Shown piece by piece: positions 24,168-27,290 of a DNA stretch of 64,000 nucleotides. The translations under genes and the position numbers were made by a program. How positions within the stretch are numbered: the first letter of the stretch is position 1; each line of letters starts with the position of its first letter. Location of the stretch: the sequence record PP488543.1; one strand, 5' to 3'. This stretch comes from Escherichia phage BP9. A model generated the notes under the pieces. That model ran no database searches and was not told where the DNA came from. It worked only from the letters and a program-made list of their open reading frames with translations.

Positions 24168-24929
24168 TTAAAGTTCCATAAAGTTTTCTACAGTTTCAAT
24201 AAATGCTTTATCAGAGAAAGCGTCAACAGCACCGTTAAACCATACAGGGATCCCGCGATCCTCATATTGATAAAGGTCGCTACGTGAAATGCCACTTCCA
24301 TCTGCACTCTGCGAATCATACTTGTTTACAATCAGCAGCTTTGTGCCTTTACAAGTAGCAGGAAACAATTCCCAGTTAAAATTAATAACTGTGTTAGAAC
24401 AACCTACCAGGATCACCATATCATTGCTTGTGAGAGATGTCAACAGGTCATACATGTCTGTATACTTAGGAGCAACCTCACCGAAGAACACTACATTGGG
24501 CTTAACCCAGGTATACTTGCCTGTATCTACCTCCGTGTATCCGATATTTTTAATTACATCATTACCTTCATCATCTTCGTAGGTGATTTCAGGCAAATAC
24601 CCGTGGACATGTAAAATATCTTCATGTTTTACACCAGCACGCTCCAGCAAATCATCTACATTGGTGGTAAGGTTGATCACACGACCAGACCAGCGGGAAT
24701 ACCACTCAGCGATCCGAAGATGTGCAAGGTTAGGATCAACACTGCCCAGAGCTACACGACGTGCATTGTAAAAATCATGCACCTTATAGTAGTTCTTGGC
24801 AAAGGTGTGGATGTTGCACACCTCATCGATGCTGAAATTCTCCCACATTGCAGTGCTACCAGATCGGAAAGTGGGAATACCAGATTCAGCGCTCAAACCC
24901 GCACCGGATATAATAATCAGTCGTCGCAT
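24168..24929 (-). CDS. Sir2 (sirtuin)-family NAD-dependent enzyme
   Basis: Rossmann NAD motif ISGAGLSAESGIPTFRSG, TTNVDDLLERAG and catalytic HVHG; no Cys4 zinc module seen. Confidence 0.75.
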   Translation of the reverse strand: MRRLIIISGAGLSAESGIPTFRSGSTAMWENFSIDEVCNIHTFAKNYYKVHDFYNARRVALGSVDPNLAHLRIAEWYSRWSGRVINLTTNVDDLLERAGVKHEDILHVHGYLPEITYEDDEGNDVIKNIGYTEVDTGKYTWVKPNVVFFGEVAPKYTDMYDLLTSLTSNDMVILVGCSNTVINFNWELFPATCKGTKLLIVNKYDSQSADGSGISRSDLYQYEDRGIPVWFNGAVDAFSDKAFIETVENFMEL

Positions 24930-24937
24930 AAGTGCCC

Positions 24938-25288
24938 TCAGTAGATGTTTTGTTTAATCTCTATTCCAAACTTTTTAAACGAGTCAGCTGCAAGCATGAA
25001 TTTACGAGCCGCTGATGGATTAGAAGTATGCACGAAAATCTTCACGTTGTCAACTACAGGAGGCTTACCAAATACAAATTTTTCCTCCAACATAGATAGG
25101 CAATCGTACCCTTCGAATACCTCTCCAAGGTCGTTGTCCATATGCCACTCAGAAACGCGTCTGTAGAGCTTTTTATTATCGTTAATAAAATCCATAAACT
25201 CGGAGGAATTCTTTAGCCAAATAGCGTCTGGGAGCCCATAATTTGAAGGATCTCTCAGATCATCCAGCCACACAATCAACTTCTTCAT
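24938..25288 (-). CDS. hypothetical protein (116 aa) in RNA-repair cluster
   Basis: Track ORF; 4-nt overlap with RNA ligase gene implies co-translation. Confidence 0.5.
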   Translation of the reverse strand: MKKLIVWLDDLRDPSNYGLPDAIWLKNSSEFMDFINDNKKLYRRVSEWHMDNDLGEVFEGYDCLSMLEEKFVFGKPPVVDNVKIFVHTSNPSAARKFMLAADSFKKFGIEIKQNIY

Positions 25289-26220
25289 TGCATATAGTCC
25301 TCGTTGTGGAAATAGTGGTCAAGTATCTCACGGCGTTCCTGCTCCAGGAGGCAGTTCCACACATCTTCTGTGTAATTGCTACGAATGAAGTTTACCATGC
25401 CGTAAAACTCTTCATCAACACGTTTAAAGATATCATCATCCCAAATCTTCCAAGCTTTACCCCTCATTACGGCCTTCCGTGCCAGATAGTATGGAGACTT
25501 GATCTTCAGCTGCAGGTCGTAAGGGTAGTAAGGCTTACGGATCATATACCCTTCACCTCTTGTTTCTGCAGCTAATTCTTTTGCATAGCTGAACGGAATT
25601 TCACGCACAGTGTGAGGACGTTTTGCACCAAGGTATTTGGCAATCCCATCTAAAGCTGCTTCTGGTAGCATTATTCCAGAATCATTATATCTGCAACCTA
25701 TCAAATATGCGCCATGATCTTCTTGAACAATATGCGGATCTGAAGGGTGACAAATTTCAAACATGAATGTCATGTTTTCATTGCCCATAACCTTCTTGAT
25801 AAGATCTAAATTACCACATTGCTCCTGGATGGTTTCCTTTGCGAGGTTACAATATGGAGAATCAAGAGATCCGGTTGTTGAGAACAATAGTTCACCTTTA
25901 TGAGATGATACCACACCGAGGAATCCGTTCTTTTTCTCTACCGCAGTCACAAGTTTACTGTCCGGTAGGTTGGTGGAGTTTTCTCCCAAGTTAAACACTT
26001 TTGTGAAGGGCCATGCCACAACATTTCCTTCATTCCCGACAACAATGCCTCGGCACTCCAGTAAACGAGGGGACAAATGCCATAAATTGTTGTAAAATAC
26101 TTTTCTAGCATATTTATAGATCTTTAACCCGAGATCTGGGTAATATCTGCTGGTTACAAGACCTTTGTCAACTAGGTCGTCTGCATTAAAATACTTCATC
26201 ATACGTTCCTCATTTGTCAT
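25285..26220 (-). CDS. probable RNA ligase (nucleotidyltransferase superfamily, Rnl-like)
   Basis: Motif I EKKNG (KxNG), motif IV EGYMIR, motif V KIKSPYY; 311 aa; adjacent to kinase and phosphatase genes. Confidence 0.6.
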   Translation of the reverse strand: MTNEERMMKYFNADDLVDKGLVTSRYYPDLGLKIYKYARKVFYNNLWHLSPRLLECRGIVVGNEGNVVAWPFTKVFNLGENSTNLPDSKLVTAVEKKNGFLGVVSSHKGELLFSTTGSLDSPYCNLAKETIQEQCGNLDLIKKVMGNENMTFMFEICHPSDPHIVQEDHGAYLIGCRYNDSGIMLPEAALDGIAKYLGAKRPHTVREIPFSYAKELAAETRGEGYMIRKPYYPYDLQLKIKSPYYLARKAVMRGKAWKIWDDDIFKRVDEEFYGMVNFIRSNYTEDVWNCLLEQERREILDHYFHNEDYMQ

Positions 26221-26263
26221 TTTGTCAGTCTATCCTGCCACACAAATAACCTAGTGTCAACAC

Positions 26264-26292
26264 TTGAAATTAACAAAACAGTTAGGTATACT
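26264..26292 (+). promoter_or_regulatory. sigma70-like promoter for kinase/phosphoesterase operon
   Basis: TTGAAA (26264-26269) N17 TATACT (26287-26292), about 29 nt upstream of ATG 26321. Confidence 0.5.
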
Positions 26293-26320
26293 ATCGTTGA
26301 AATTAAAACGGAGGGTCACT

Positions 26321-26728
26321 ATGTCTAAAATGCTATATATCGTGCGTGGTCTACCAGGGTCTGGCAAATCAACACTGGCAAATGCGCTATCTTTAGAGGG
26401 TCTGTATCCACATTTTGAGAACGACATGTTCTGGTACGACGATGATGGAAATTACAACTGGGATGCAAGTAAAGTCACACTTGCAGCAAAATGGTGCAAA
26501 GATAACGTAGAAGATATGATGCGTATGGGATACGACCGTATCGTGGTAAGTAATACGTTTACAAAAGAAAAATATGTGCAAAAATATATTGACATGGCAA
26601 TCAGTTATGGGTATAGTTATACCGTAATCGTGGTTGAAAACCGCCACGGTAATAAAAGCATTCATGCTTCAGACGAGGTTGTGGATCGTATGGAACGCCA
26701 ACTTAAAAACTGCATTAAACTTAAATGA
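26321..26728 (+). CDS. polynucleotide kinase-like P-loop kinase
   Basis: P-loop GLPGSGKST right after start MSKMLYIV; GGAGGG SD 5 nt upstream; track ORF begins at TTG 26264 but ATG 26321 preferred. Confidence 0.65.
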   Translation: MSKMLYIVRGLPGSGKSTLANALSLEGLYPHFENDMFWYDDDGNYNWDASKVTLAAKWCKDNVEDMMRMGYDRIVVSNTFTKEKYVQKYIDMAISYGYSYTVIVVENRHGNKSIHASDEVVDRMERQLKNCIKLK

Positions 26729-26735
26729 GGAATGT

Positions 26736-27290
26736 ATGAAATACTTTGTAACAAGCGACACACACTTTCTCCACCAGCGGGTCATGGAGTTTGATTCATG
26801 TCAAAAACACAGATCTCAGTATGATCACAATCTTGACAGTATGAATGCGGGAATCATCGCCGAGTGGAACTCTGTTGTGTCACCTGCAGACACTGTGTTC
26901 CACTTGGGGGATATTGCGTGCACTAATGATAAGAATATCAACAACTTACTTCCAGATATTCTAAATATGTTGAACGGACATATTATTCTTGTTCGTGGCA
27001 ACCATGACACAAGGACGACTGTCAGAATTATGAAAGAGTTCTATCATGAGGTTGTAGATTATTACGAGCTTCGCCACAACAAGAATTTGATCTGTATGAG
27101 CCATTACCAATTTGCAAAGTGGAACAGAAAGCATCACGGATCAGTCCAACTGTTCGGTCATGCTCACGGAACCACACAACAGTTGTTTGGCAGGCAGCTT
27201 GATGTCGGTTGGGATGTGTGGGGGAGACTCTTACCATTAGAAGAGGCATACCGTATTGCAATGAGTTTTGCTATTGACAGCGGGGAGTAA
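26736..27290 (+). CDS. calcineurin-like metallophosphoesterase (candidate 3'-phosphatase)
   Basis: Motifs DTHF, GDI, GNHD, GHAH; start ATG 26736 with GAGGAA SD (track ORF starts earlier at 26634 overlapping kinase). Confidence 0.8.
   Translation: MKYFVTSDTHFLHQRVMEFDSCQKHRSQYDHNLDSMNAGIIAEWNSVVSPADTVFHLGDIACTNDKNINNLLPDILNMLNGHIILVRGNHDTRTTVRIMKEFYHEVVDYYELRHNKNLICMSHYQFAKWNRKHHGSVQLFGHAHGTTQQLFGRQLDVGWDVWGRLLPLEEAYRIAMSFAIDSGE

What the first reader, a model, noticed from the sequence alone, without database searches (positions are those of the whole stretch)
24168..27290. Divergent RNA-repair cluster (Sir2-like, small partner ORF, RNA ligase, polynucleotide kinase, phosphoesterase) beside the tRNA island
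Five genes around a strand-switch point encode an Rnl-like ligase (EKKNG, EGYMIR), a P-loop kinase (GLPGSGKST), a metallophosphoesterase (DTHF, GDI, GNHD) and a Sir2-family NAD enzyme. Kinase, phosphatase and ligase together are the activities needed to heal and seal tRNAs cut by host anticodon nucleases, as in the T4 Pnkp/Rnl1 paradigm. Here the healing enzyme is split into two genes and a sirtuin-like protein is attached, with a phage tRNA island 3 kb downstream. This looks like a composite counter-defence module aimed at tRNA-targeting immunity, in a configuration I do not recognise as described.
Basis: partly seen in the sequence, partly recalled or inferred. Interest (0 to 1): 0.75.

Follow-up and report, generated by a model that had tools for sequence, protein, structure and literature searches.

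The report
Known phage RNA-repair gene cluster with sirtuin
This is a real cluster of phage genes predicted to mend cut tRNAs (kinase, phosphoesterase, RNA ligase, plus a sirtuin and two helper genes), but it sits in a well-sequenced rV5-like E. coli phage and this exact gene arrangement was already described computationally in 2022, so only its untested biochemistry remains of interest.

Summary
All five genes exist at the stated coordinates and match the named families: SIR2, RNA_lig_T4_1, AAA_33 kinase and Metallophos. The "small partner ORF" is a cREC (cyclic-phosphate-processing receiver) domain. A sixth conserved member, a MazG-like gene at 23441-24154, was missed.

The window is a Vequintavirus (rV5-like E. 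coli phage). This stretch is 100% identical to phage vB_EcoM_YN3 and 96-97% identical to more than 100 others.

Iyer et al. 2022 (Viruses 14:1977) describe this neighbourhood, with phage V5 and Proteus phage Mydo as prototypes. They propose that the sirtuin acts like KptA/Tpt1 to remove RNA 2'-phosphates.

My synteny analysis shows a widely conserved core of phosphoesterase, Rnl1-like ligase and kinase. cREC is added in two phage subfamilies. The sirtuin lies inside the cluster only in Vequintavirinae and a few related lineages. T5-like phages pair the same sirtuin clade with a HAD_SAK_2 phosphatase instead.

Published transposon data for the near-identical phage Bas54 show five of the six genes to be non-essential (cREC "Intermediate"). 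I found no biochemical test in the searchable literature.

Verdict: real, ordinary, already known. The sirtuin's role is still open.

The parts
23441..24154 (-). MazG-like (all-alpha NTP pyrophosphohydrolase-like) protein, 237 aa.
   Evidence: PHROG 671 'nucleotide pyrophosphohydrolase' 5.8e-22. Pfam gives only a sub-threshold PRA-PH hit at 0.086. Homologues at 30-35% identity lie downstream of the cluster in PVP-SE1, Mydo, ESCO5 and EmilieFrey. Iyer et al. 2022 list it as a MazG superfamily member.
24168..24929 (-). Class III (CobB/SIRT5-like) sirtuin, 253 aa. It has full NAD-binding and catalytic motifs and the Tyr54/Arg57 anion-binding dyad, but none of the four Zn-binding cysteines.
   Evidence: Pfam SIR2 1.9e-27. 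Best PDB match is E. coli CobB 1S5P at 3.7e-21. AF2 mean pLDDT 89.1. Foldseek to CobB gives TM 0.75/0.83. In 32 homologues G9 A10 G11 S16 G17 F21 R22 Y54 R57 N90 D92 H109 are invariant and no Cys is conserved in residues 110-145. No PADLOC defence-SIR2 hit. Below the NCBIfam CobB equivalog cut-off, 102.8 vs 320 bits.
Its stop overlaps the ligase gene by 4 nt.
   Evidence: Pfam PF20274 cREC_REC 1.7e-14, 54.7 bits vs GA 27. PHROG 1479 2.1e-35. Invariant D9 D10 D51 N52 D53 H87 T88 S89 N90 P91 K96 across five phage genera. No solved structure found by sequence.
25285..26202 (-). Rnl1-family ATP-dependent RNA ligase. The ORF is open to 26220 (311 aa); the likely start is Met7 at 26202 (305 aa).
   Evidence: Pfam RNA_lig_T4_1 9.3e-15. 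A profile of 34 homologues hits T4 Rnl1 2C5U at 1.5e-12, aligning the R, K-x-F, KxxG, E, EG and KxK motifs. Invariant R57 K74 F76 K96 N98 G99 E155 E223 G224 K239 K241. AF2 pLDDT 91.7. Foldseek top hits are Rnl3, T4 Rnl1 and the fungal Trl1 ligase domain. Below the TIGR02308 equivalog cut-off, 38 vs 242 bits.
26203..26320 (.). Divergent intergenic region between the ligase operon (-) and the kinase/phosphoesterase pair (+).
   Evidence: GC skew changes sign here. A promoter-like TTGAAA-17-TATACT lies at 26264-26292(+), with a GGAGGG Shine-Dalgarno at 26309-26314 before ATG 26321. This is a pattern match only. No convincing sigma-70 match was found for the minus-strand operon.
26321..26728 (+). 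P-loop polynucleotide-kinase-like protein, 135 aa.
   Evidence: Pfam AAA_33 3.5e-10. PHROG 2071 1.3e-54 and PHROG 505 'polynucleotide kinase' 3.6e-10. By profile, the closest solved sequences are the C. thermocellum Pnkp kinase domain 4GP6 (0.0022), Pnkp1 4XRP (0.003) and T4 Pnk 1LY1 (0.09). Invariant G10-x2-G13-x-G15-K16-S17-T18, D35 and R108.
26736..27290 (+). Calcineurin-like metallophosphoesterase, 184 aa. It is probably translationally coupled to the kinase: a GAGGA overlaps the kinase stop codon, with a 7-nt gap to the ATG.
   Evidence: Pfam Metallophos 2.5e-6. PHROG 547 1.3e-51. Invariant D8 H10 D59 N89 H90 H123 H142 H144. The closest structure is the uncharacterised Aquifex aq_1665 1XM7 (3.2e-11 single sequence, 8.8e-16 profile), not the CthPnkp phosphatase. 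Sequence around the junction.
21531..22814 (-). ATP-dependent DNA ligase. It is a syntenic neighbour of the cluster in every lineage examined and is not necessarily a functional member.
   Evidence: Pfam DNA_ligase_A_M and OB_2. PHROG 114 2.7e-83. It lies next to the cluster in PVP-SE1, Mydo, ESCO5, EmilieFrey and Pakpunavirus.
30207..31146 (+). Phage tRNA island of seven tRNA-like genes: Arg-TCT, Tyr-GTA variant, Ser-TGA, an atypical Lys-UUU, Thr-TGT, a CAT-anticodon tRNA (Met/Ile) and Pro-TGG.
   Evidence: ARAGORN; Rfam; alignment with Bas54 and Bas59.

Best explanation
The cluster is an accessory phage RNA (most probably tRNA) end-healing-and-sealing cassette. It belongs to the already described 'sirtuin-centred, type 2' neighbourhood of rV5-like phages.

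**Inferred mechanism.**
- A host ribonuclease cuts a tRNA or another RNA, leaving 2',3'-cyclic-phosphate and 5'-OH ends.
- The P-loop kinase phosphorylates the 5'-OH.
- The metallophosphoesterase and/or the cREC protein open and remove the cyclic, 3' or 2' phosphate.
- The Rnl1-type ligase seals 3'-OH to 5'-P using ATP.
- The phosphoesterase-ligase-kinase triad is the evolutionarily stable core.
- cREC, the Zn-less class III sirtuin and the MazG-like protein are lineage-specific add-ons.
- The favoured role for the add-ons is the published one. A cREC-type cyclic phosphodiesterase leaves a 2'-phosphate. The sirtuin removes it with NAD+, as KptA/Tpt1 does. The ADP-ribose-cyclic-phosphate by-product is then degraded.

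**Shown here.** Family membership, intact catalytic residues, conserved synteny, and dispensability on laboratory K-12.

**Inferred.** Every enzymatic step, the RNA substrate, and the counter-defence purpose.
For: - **Family assignments.** All are above curated thresholds.
- **Catalytic residues.** They are invariant across 5-34 homologues.
- **Ligase.** Closest by profile to T4 Rnl1 and by fold to Rnl3, Rnl1 and the Trl1 ligase domain.
- **Kinase.** Closest to the RNA-repair kinases CthPnkp, Pnkp1 and T4 Pnk.
- **Core triad.** MPE-Rnl-kinase is adjacent in Vequintavirus, Seunavirus, Mydovirus, Phapecoctavirus, Justusliebigvirus, Pakpunavirus and a Vibrio phage despite rearrangements.
- **tRNA islands.** They flank the cluster in the window, ESCO5, EmilieFrey and Mydo.
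- **Sirtuin neighbours.** The same sirtuin clade sits beside a different RNA end-healing enzyme in T5-like phages: HAD_SAK_2, 4e-20, in 28 of 80 IMG/VR loci. It sits beside the Rnl cluster in 11-15 of 80 loci.
- **Accessory behaviour.** Five of the six Bas54 orthologues (94-99% identical) are non-essential and cREC is 'Intermediate', as expected for conditional accessory or counter-defence genes.
- **Literature.** The published contextual analysis reaches the same conclusion.
- **Chemistry (my inference from established mechanisms).** In sirtuin catalysis a substrate oxygen attacks NAD+ C1', and the ribose 2'-OH then attacks the substrate. This parallels the two Tpt1 steps.
Against: - No biochemical or genetic test of any of these proteins was found.
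- The resampling rows retrieved for the K-12 versus clinical-strain comparisons (CFE303, CFE311) show no significant change for any of the six genes.
- The ligase and sirtuin score far below the NCBIfam equivalog cut-offs for T4 RnlA and CobB.
- The ligase lacks most of T4 Rnl1's C-terminal tRNA-specificity domain: about 65 aa against about 120 aa, and alignments cover only T4 residues 51-249.
- The phosphoesterase is closest to an uncharacterised Aquifex protein, not to a known RNA end-healing phosphatase.
- The sirtuin is separable from the ligase. It lies 33 kb away in EmilieFrey. It is absent near the triad in the Pakpunavirus and Vibrio phage loci. About half of 80 sirtuin loci show none of the partner genes at BLAST sensitivity.
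- The cREC family has no characterised member.
Confidence: 0.62

Rival explanations
1. The triad repairs RNA, but the sirtuin is an independent CobB/SIRT5-like protein lysine deacylase (desuccinylase or deacetylase) or protein ADP-ribosyltransferase. It would remodel host or phage proteins and be merely co-located with other early accessory genes.
For: - The best sequence and fold matches are CobB and SIRT5.
- The Tyr54/Arg57 dyad is invariant. It corresponds to CobB Y92/R95 and SIRT5 Y102/R105, which recognise acidic acyl-lysines (residue roles from my own knowledge).
- The FGE peptide-binding loop is retained (alignment).
- The clade occurs in 1004 phage records, against 348 for cREC and 768 for the ligase.
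- It lies far from the ligase in Stephanstirmvirinae.
- About half of the IMG/VR loci show no partner gene.
Against: - Adjacency to RNA end-healing enzymes recurs in at least two unrelated architectures: the Rnl cluster, and HAD_SAK_2 in T5-like phages.
- The literature reports a third architecture with 2H, Nudix-cREC and PIN in jumbo phages.
- The whole clade has lost the Zn-binding cysteines found in characterised deacylases.
- It scores far below the CobB equivalog cut-off.
Confidence: 0.3
2. The kinase and phosphoesterase heal DNA ends (5'-OH, 3'-phosphate) for the neighbouring ATP-dependent DNA ligase. On this view the region is mainly a DNA nick-repair cassette.
For: - An ATP-dependent DNA ligase is syntenic with the cluster in every lineage checked.
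- The phosphoesterase has a weak hit to the ligase-associated DNA-damage-response PdeM family, TIGR04123, 9.3e-4.
- T4 Pnkp also acts on DNA (my own knowledge).
Against: - The PdeM hit is far below its cut-off, 18.6 vs 150 bits.
- The kinase and phosphoesterase are immediately adjacent to the Rnl1-type RNA ligase rather than to the DNA ligase in most lineages.
- cREC is a domain reported only in RNA-repair and ADPr>p contexts.
- tRNA islands flank the cluster.
Confidence: 0.08
3. The 'RNA ligase' serves mainly as a tail-fibre attachment catalyst, like T4 gp63, as many GenBank and PHROG annotations state.
For: PHROG 562 is named 'RNA ligase and tail fiber protein attachment catalyst' and categorised as 'tail'. 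Many records copy this name.
Against: - The annotation is inherited from T4 gp63.
- The Bas54 orthologue tolerates insertions at 56 of 60 TA sites and is called non-essential, so it has no essential morphogenetic role. In contrast, the T4 rnlA N-terminal domain is intolerant of insertions.
- The gene sits among early or accessory nucleic-acid enzymes, not tail genes.
- All ligase catalytic residues are conserved.
Confidence: 0.03

Closest known systems
Sirtuin-centred phage RNA-repair neighbourhood, type 2 (Iyer, Burroughs, Anantharaman & Aravind 2022, Viruses 14:1977; prototypes Escherichia phage V5 and Proteus phage Mydo)
   Same: The gene set is identical: sirtuin of the phage-specific clade, T4-like RNA ligase, cREC, nucleotide kinase, MazG-like protein and calcineurin-like phosphoesterase. 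The window is an rV5-like Vequintavirus; its Sir2 is 93.7% identical to that of rV5_ev158.
   Different: Nothing substantive. In Vequintavirus the kinase and phosphoesterase lie on the opposite strand across a divergent intergenic region. In Mydo and PVP-SE1 all genes are co-directional, in the order MPE-x-x-Rnl-cREC-kinase-(x)-Sir2.
T4 Pnkp + Rnl1 tRNA restoration pathway (countering the PrrC anticodon nuclease)
   Same: It combines 5'-kinase, 3'-end healing and Rnl1-family ligase activities in a tRNA-encoding phage. The ligase shares all nucleotidyltransferase motif residues with T4 Rnl1.
   Different: - The T4 phosphatase is a HAD-type domain fused to the kinase. Here it is a separate calcineurin-type enzyme.
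- The ligase has a much shorter C-terminal domain and is not an RnlA equivalog.
- The extra cREC, sirtuin and MazG-like genes have no T4 counterpart.
Bacterial Pnkp(-Hen1) RNA repair (Clostridium thermocellum Pnkp; Capnocytophaga Pnkp1-Rnl-Hen1)
   Same: It uses the same three chemistries: P-loop kinase, calcineurin-type metallophosphoesterase and ATP-dependent ligase. The phage kinase's closest solved relatives are the CthPnkp and Pnkp1 kinase domains. PHROG 8238, a 737-position profile, matches both the kinase and the ligase.
   Different: - The three activities are on separate genes here rather than in one polypeptide.
- The phosphoesterase is not detectably close to the CthPnkp phosphatase.
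- No Hen1 methyltransferase was detected among the ORFs scanned between 21.5 and 28.9 kb.
Fungal/plant Trl1 + Tpt1(KptA) tRNA splicing pathway
   Same: The logic may be the same: a cyclic phosphodiesterase leaves a 2'-PO4, a kinase and an Rnl1-like ligase act, and an NAD+-dependent enzyme removes the 2'-PO4. The Trl1 ligase domain is among the top fold matches.
   Different: The cyclic phosphodiesterase would be cREC or the metallophosphoesterase instead of a 2H enzyme. The NAD+ enzyme would be a sirtuin fold instead of the KptA ART fold. Both substitutions are hypotheses only.
E. coli CobB / human SIRT5 (class III sirtuins)
   Same: The Rossmann fold, the NAD-binding motifs, the catalytic His109 and the Tyr-x-x-Arg dyad are shared. 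Foldseek TM is 0.75-0.83.
   Different: Identity is about 27%. All four Zn-binding cysteines are absent across the phage clade. The protein falls below the CobB equivalog cut-off. Its genomic context is RNA end-healing enzymes.

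Membership tests
Iyer et al. 2022 type-2 sirtuin-centred RNA-repair neighbourhood | Co-located sirtuin, T4-like RNA ligase, cREC, nucleotide kinase and MazG-superfamily protein, with or without a calcineurin-like phosphoesterase, in a medium-sized proteobacterial phage | tested here: met
   All six genes lie within 23441-27290. The window is a Vequintavirus. 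The definition is quoted.
Rnl1-family ATP-dependent RNA ligase (Pfam RNA_lig_T4_1) | Score above the Pfam gathering threshold, and a closest solved sequence that is T4 Rnl1 | tested here: met
   55.5 bits vs GA 28.3. The profile hits 2C5U at 1.5e-12.
Rnl1-family ATP-dependent RNA ligase (Pfam RNA_lig_T4_1) | Nucleotidyltransferase motif residues: the motif I Lys (KxxG), the motif III Glu, motif IV EG and motif V KxK, plus the upstream Arg and K-x-F | tested here: met
   K96/N98/G99, E155, E223/G224, K239/K241, R57 and K74/F76 are invariant in 34 homologues. They align to the corresponding T4 Rnl1 positions.
Rnl1-family ATP-dependent RNA ligase (Pfam RNA_lig_T4_1) | T4 RnlA equivalog status, including the C-terminal tRNA-specificity domain | tested here: not met
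   TIGR02308 scores 38.1 bits against a cut-off of 242.25. Only T4 residues 51-249 align. The C-terminal helical region is about 65 aa.
Rnl1-family ATP-dependent RNA ligase (Pfam RNA_lig_T4_1) | ATP-dependent sealing of 3'-OH/5'-PO4 RNA ends | not testable with these tools
   This needs an enzyme assay.
Polynucleotide 5'-kinase (T4 Pnkp / CthPnkp type P-loop kinase) | Walker A motif GxxxxGK(S/T), and an Asp general base about 20 residues downstream | tested here: met
   G10-K16-S17-T18 and D35 are invariant. D35 aligns with the Asp of the CthPnkp kinase domain in the HMMER alignment.
Polynucleotide 5'-kinase (T4 Pnkp / CthPnkp type P-loop kinase) | Significant sequence similarity to characterised polynucleotide kinases | tested here: inconclusive
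   E-values against PDB sequences are marginal: CthPnkp 0.0022, Pnkp1 0.003, T4 Pnk 0.09-0.14. PHROG 505 'polynucleotide kinase' scores 3.6e-10. The Pfam match is only to the generic AAA_33 family.
Calcineurin-like metallophosphoesterase | Metal-binding motifs DxH, GD, GNH(D/E), H and GHxH | tested here: met
   D8/H10, G58/D59, G88/N89/H90/D91, H123 and G141/H142/H144 are invariant. Pfam Metallophos is above GA.
Calcineurin-like metallophosphoesterase | Relationship to a characterised RNA 2',3'-cyclic phosphodiesterase or 3'-phosphatase (CthPnkp or lambda-phosphatase type) | tested here: not met
   The only significant solved relative is the uncharacterised aq_1665, 1XM7.
cREC (PF20274, cyclic-phosphate-processing receiver domain) | Pfam score above threshold, and a conserved receiver-like acidic pocket (two Asp after strand 1, plus an Asp after strand 3) | tested here: met
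   54.7 bits vs GA 27. D9/D10 and D51/D53 are invariant.
cREC (PF20274, cyclic-phosphate-processing receiver domain) | Cyclic phosphodiesterase activity | not testable with these tools
   The family itself is experimentally uncharacterised, according to PMC9503650.
Sirtuin, class III (CobB/SIRT5-like) | NAD-binding GAGxS...SGIxxFR motif, the NxD motif, the catalytic His, and the Tyr-x-x-Arg dyad | tested here: met
   G9-A10-G11, S16-G17, F21-R22, N90/D92, H109 and Y54/R57 are invariant in 32 sequences. Alignment to CobB.
Sirtuin, class III (CobB/SIRT5-like) | Cys4 zinc-binding module | tested here: not met
   The window sequence has no cysteine at any of the four CobB positions (alignment). 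No Cys is conserved in residues 110-145 of the clade.
Sirtuin, class III (CobB/SIRT5-like) | CobB equivalog status (NCBIfam) | tested here: not met
   NF040867 scores 102.8 bits against a cut-off of 320.
Defence-type SIR2 NADases (ThsA, DSR, SIR2-HerA and others) | Match to PADLOC SIR2 models | tested here: not met
   No PADLOC hit at E <= 0.001.
KptA/Tpt1-like RNA 2'-phosphotransferase (functional analogy only) | NAD+-dependent removal of RNA 2'-PO4 | not testable with these tools
   This is a hypothesis from gene context. The fold is sirtuin, not ART, so family membership is excluded and only functional analogy is at issue.

The most novel reading that the evidence does not exclude
The Zn-less class III sirtuin of this phage clade may not be a protein deacylase. 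It may be an NAD+-dependent RNA 2'-phosphotransferase, a sirtuin-fold functional analogue of Tpt1/KptA. Together with a cREC cyclic phosphodiesterase, an Rnl1-like ligase and a kinase, it would form a Trl1/Tpt1-style tRNA repair pathway in bacteriophages. The idea is already published as a prediction (Iyer et al. 2022), but no test was found. It would be a new catalytic activity for the sirtuin fold and the first assigned activity for cREC.
Probability: 0.25. Interest if true: 0.75.

Novelty: already known. Interest (0 to 1): 0.27.

Why it matters
As a genome-scan finding it adds nothing new. The sequence matches deposited phages, the genes are annotated, and the neighbourhood and its proposed mechanism are in the literature.

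Its remaining value is as a ready test bed. The BASEL phages Bas54 and Bas59 carry the same cluster, and a saturated transposon library of Bas54 already exists. This makes the sirtuin-as-2'-phosphotransferase and cREC-as-cyclic-phosphodiesterase hypotheses directly testable, along with the cluster's role against tRNA-cleaving defences such as PrrC, RloC, PARIS, retron-PtuAB and Cas13.

A positive result would extend sirtuin chemistry to RNA. It would also explain why about a thousand sequenced tRNA-rich phages keep this sirtuin.

Tried and rejected
- **Single-sequence PDB searches.** phmmer with the ligase and the kinase found nothing meaningful. Profiles built from homologues were needed.
- **cREC against PDB.** The profile found no solved relative.
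- **PADLOC.** No defence-system match for any cluster protein except weak generic P-loop hits for the kinase. I rejected the idea that the Sir2 is a defence-type NADase.
- **NCBIfam.** No curated cut-off was reached for any protein. I therefore rejected 'orthologue of T4 RnlA' and 'orthologue of CobB'.
- **Pfam on the MazG-like ORF.** Only a sub-threshold PRA-PH hit, even at E <= 10. The MazG assignment rests on PHROG and on the literature.
- **Promoter scan.** One plausible plus-strand site lies before the kinase. No convincing sigma-70 site was found for the minus-strand operon, so I make no regulatory claim.
- **NAD+ salvage genes.** I looked in the window for NAMPT, Prs and a T5.105-like HAD_SAK. 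None was found.
- **Sirtuin neighbours in EmilieFrey and phage 7-11.** Pfam gave no hit on the ORFs directly flanking the sirtuin (including the two annotated 'putative aminoacyl-tRNA synthetase'); the only hit in the EmilieFrey locus was a Metallophos protein about 4.5 kb upstream.
- **Literature.** Searches for experimental work on phage sirtuins or this cluster found only the computational papers and the HIDEN-SEQ essentiality data.
- **Technical note.** An early local BLAST failed because several loci are stored in one FASTA file. This was resolved.

Full report
**1. What is in the sequence**

ORF listing shows five tightly packed genes around a strand switch at about 26.2 kb.
- Minus strand: 24168-24929 (253 aa), 24938-25288 (116 aa) and 25285-26220 (311 aa).
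- Plus strand: 26321-26728 (135 aa) and 26736-27290 (184 aa).

GC skew changes sign at the same place. Pfam assigns the five proteins, all above gathering score:

| Gene | Pfam family | E-value |
|---|---|---|
| 24168-24929 | SIR2 | 1.9e-27 |
| 24938-25288 | cREC_REC, 'cyclic-phosphate processing receiver domain' | 1.7e-14 |
| 25285-26220 | RNA_lig_T4_1 | 9.3e-15 |
| 26321-26728 | AAA_33 | 3.5e-10 |
| 26736-27290 | Metallophos | 2.5e-6 |

PHROG matches are much stronger, from 1e-35 to 1e-108.

Three refinements follow.
- The 'small partner ORF' is a cREC domain protein.
- The next gene on the minus strand, 23441-24154, matches PHROG 671 'nucleotide pyrophosphohydrolase' at 5.8e-22 and is part of the conserved cluster.
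- The ligase probably starts at Met7 (26202). A GAGGA lies 4-5 nt upstream, homologues start there, and the AF2 model is disordered for residues 1-7.

The kinase stop codon overlaps a GAGGA 4 nt before the phosphoesterase ATG, which suggests translational coupling.

**2. Where the window comes from**

The stretch 24000-27400 is 100% identical to Escherichia phage vB_EcoM_YN3. It is 96-97% identical over its full length to 117 further records of rV5-like phages (Vequintavirinae, genus Vequintavirus), including JES2013 and the BASEL phages. In the BASEL records the genes are already annotated as 'RNA ligase', 'polynucleotide kinase', 'putative phosphoesterase' and 'sirtuin domain NAD-dependent deacetylase'.

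**3. Tests of each protein**

*Ligase.*
- A profile of 34 homologues finds T4 Rnl1 (2C5U) as the best solved sequence, at 1.5e-12.
- The alignment superimposes the upstream Arg, the K-x-F element, motif I KxxG, the motif III Glu, motif IV EG and motif V KxK.
- The corresponding residues R57, K74, F76, K96, E155, E223, G224, K239 and K241 are invariant.
- The AF2 model (pLDDT 91.7) is closest to Rnl3, T4 Rnl1 and the fungal Trl1 ligase domain.
- It is not a T4 RnlA equivalog: 38 bits against a 242-bit cut-off. Its C-terminal helical region is only about 65 residues.

*Kinase.*
- The Walker A motif, Asp35 and Arg108 are invariant.
- The closest solved sequences by profile are the kinase domains of the RNA-repair enzymes C. 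thermocellum Pnkp, Pnkp1 and T4 Pnk.
- Their E-values are marginal, 0.002 to 0.14.

*Phosphoesterase.*
- All canonical metal ligands are invariant.
- The only solved relative is the uncharacterised Aquifex protein aq_1665. Its link to RNA therefore rests on gene context alone.

*cREC.*
- The receiver-like acidic pocket (D9, D10, D51, D53) and an HTSNP motif are invariant.
- No solved relative was found by sequence.

*Sirtuin.*
- The closest relatives are E. coli CobB and SIRT5, at about 1e-21.
- The AF2 model (pLDDT 89) superimposes on CobB with TM 0.75-0.83.
- The NAD-binding motifs, N90/D92, the catalytic H109 and the Tyr54-x-x-Arg57 dyad are invariant in 32 homologues. By the alignment and my recollection of the literature, this dyad equals CobB Y92/R95 and SIRT5 Y102/R105.
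- All four zinc-binding cysteines are missing across the clade.
- It falls below the CobB equivalog cut-off and matches no defence-type SIR2 model.

**4. Genomic context across phages**

I fetched annotated loci from other lineages and ran tblastn with the window's proteins against them.

| Phage (lineage) | Arrangement |
|---|---|
| PVP-SE1 (Seunavirus), Mydo (Mydovirus) | MPE-x-x-Rnl-cREC-kinase-(x)-Sir2-DNA ligase-...-MazG-like, all on one strand |
| ESCO5, EmilieFrey (Stephanstirmvirinae) | cREC-x-x-MPE-Rnl-kinase-...-DNA ligase-...-MazG-like, next to a tRNA island; in EmilieFrey the sirtuin is about 33 kb away |
| Pakpunavirus, a Vibrio phage | Only MPE, Rnl and kinase are found together |
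| T5 | No Rnl; the sirtuin (T5.102) lies three genes from T5.105, a HAD_SAK_2 'Swiss-army-knife RNA repair' phosphatase (4e-20) |

Counts in the phage collection are 1004 records for the sirtuin, 768 for the ligase and 348 for cREC.

Among 80 sirtuin loci from IMG/VR, searched to +/-10 kb:
- 28 carry the T5.105-like HAD phosphatase 0.8-1.3 kb downstream.
- 11-15 carry Rnl, kinase or MPE.
- 8 carry cREC.
- Roughly half show none of these at BLAST sensitivity.

These loci are not phylogenetically independent, so the numbers are descriptive only.

My reading has three parts.
- MPE-Rnl-kinase is the stable core.
- cREC is a lineage-specific addition.
- The sirtuin is a separable module that has repeatedly ended up beside RNA end-healing enzymes of different folds.

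**5. What is already published**

[quoted passage not shown] They also state that cREC remains experimentally uncharacterised. Their third configuration, sirtuin plus HAD phosphatase in T5-like phages, is what I independently saw in T5.

**6. Functional data**

The only experimental data I found come from the HIDEN-SEQ preprint (bioRxiv 10.1101/2025.11.20.689424), which includes a saturated transposon library of phage Bas54. The Bas54 cluster proteins are 94-99% identical to the window's.

| Bas54 gene | Product | TA sites hit | Call |
|---|---|---|---|
| bas54_0206 | MazG-like | 35/40 | Non-essential |
| bas54_0207 | sirtuin | 48/51 | Non-essential |
| bas54_0208 | cREC | 16/21 | Intermediate |
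| bas54_0209 | RNA ligase | 56/60 | Non-essential |
| bas54_0210 | kinase | 33/36 | Non-essential |
| bas54_0211 | phosphoesterase | 26/27 | Non-essential |

The resampling rows I retrieved for the K-12 versus clinical-strain comparisons (CFE303, CFE311) show no significant change: log2 fold change 0.13-0.43, adjusted p >= 0.75.

This fits accessory, conditionally useful genes. It argues against an essential tail-fibre-attachment role for the ligase, in contrast to T4 rnlA. It does not demonstrate a counter-defence function.

Further literature searches found no biochemical or genetic study of phage sirtuins or of this cluster. The searchable library does not include most subscription journals.

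**7. Most likely mechanism and rivals**

The best-supported reading, at confidence about 0.6, is an accessory RNA heal-and-seal cassette.
- The kinase supplies the 5'-phosphate.
- The phosphoesterase and/or cREC resolve the 2',3'-cyclic phosphate.
- The Rnl1-like ligase seals the break.
- tRNAs cut by host anticodon nucleases are the most plausible substrates, given the flanking tRNA islands and the T4 precedent.

The roles of the sirtuin, cREC and the MazG-like protein are inferred only. The KptA-analogue idea is chemically attractive. Sirtuin catalysis and Tpt1 catalysis both begin with a substrate oxygen attacking NAD+ C1'. Both continue with the ADP-ribose 2'-OH attacking the substrate. 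This parallel is my inference from the established mechanisms.

The retained class III Tyr/Arg dyad, the CobB-like fold and the frequent occurrence of the sirtuin away from any ligase keep a plain protein-deacylase role alive, at about 0.3. A DNA-end-healing role with the syntenic DNA ligase (about 0.08) and a tail-fibre-attachment role (about 0.03) are minor rivals.

**8. Verdict**

The feature is real and correctly recognised at the level of protein families, but it is already known. The sequence is deposited, the genes are annotated, and the neighbourhood and its hypothetical mechanism are published. Interest is low to moderate. It lies entirely in the still-untested biochemistry of the sirtuin and cREC components, for which BASEL phages and an existing transposon library offer a direct experimental route.

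Noticed in passing
window 30284-30499: Relative to Bas54 and Bas59, this phage has a 127-128 nt insertion between tRNA-Arg and tRNA-Tyr. The insert folds stably (z = -3.85) and has no Rfam match. The adjacent tRNA-Tyr(GTA) carries compensated acceptor-stem changes (GGUGAGU/ACUCACC vs GGGGAGU/ACUCCCC) and D-arm changes. ARAGORN misses this gene, while Rfam scores it at 39 bits.
   Followed up: partly
window 30803-30901: A 97-99 nt tRNA-like gene is conserved in Bas54 and Bas59, where it is annotated tRNA-Lys. Its anticodon loop UUUUUAA gives anticodon UUU, and it has a long class-II-like variable arm, which is atypical for tRNA-Lys. ARAGORN calls a 4-base anticodon. Rfam tRNA reaches 31 bits (GA 29) only in sensitive mode. 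tRNA-Lys(UUU) is the target of PrrC and PARIS (my own knowledge), so an unusual phage copy could be a nuclease-resistant substitute. This is speculation.
   Followed up: partly
window 30614-30704: The ARAGORN tRNA-Ser(TGA) is not reported by the Rfam tRNA model at gathering score. It scores best against the tRNA-Sec model, at 41 bits against GA 47.
   Followed up: no
L002 1-1476; L006 1577-4124; L008 3246-5944; L010 5322-8157: NAD+ salvage genes (nicotinamide phosphoribosyltransferase and ribose-phosphate pyrophosphokinase) recur within a few kb (about 0.5-8 kb) of the RNA-repair cluster in Seunavirus, Mydovirus, Justusliebigvirus, Hena1-like and Pakpunavirus phages. This holds even where no sirtuin is nearby. 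No homologue is present in this 64-kb window. This could reflect shared ancestry of the region or a functional NAD+ link.
   Followed up: partly
L004 (phage T5) 7001-9481: The T5 Sir2-like gene T5.102 is followed by T5.105, a HAD_SAK_2 RNA-repair-type phosphatase (4e-20). After that come two paralogous DUF7415 proteins, T5.106 and T5.107 (about 3e-33 and 3e-30). T5 has no Rnl homologue in this locus.
   Followed up: partly
L003 (EmilieFrey) 864-1436 and 6459-6989: Two ORFs annotated 'putative aminoacyl-tRNA synthetase' (190 and 176 aa) flank the region of the unlinked sirtuin in this phi92-like phage. Neither has any Pfam hit.
   Followed up: no
search result for window 24000-27400: Eighteen records named 'Campylobacter phage' (MG0656xx, host C. 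jejuni, unannotated) are about 97% identical to this E. coli Vequintavirus region. Such near-identity across hosts this distant suggests mislabelled or contaminant genomes in that submission set.
   Followed up: no
window 23417-23434: A perfect 7-bp GC-rich hairpin (AGCCGGG-TAAT-CCCGGCT) scores as a terminator-like site on both strands. It lies between the MazG-like gene and the upstream small ORFs.
   Followed up: no
window 27338-27688: The gene just downstream of the phosphoesterase is a 116-aa HTH protein. It matches PHROG 12838 'replication initiation protein' at 5e-80, with only sub-threshold Pfam matches to DUF6945 and HTH_36. BASEL annotates it as a transcriptional regulator. Its Bas54 orthologue is called 'Intermediate' with low insertion read counts.
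   Followed up: no
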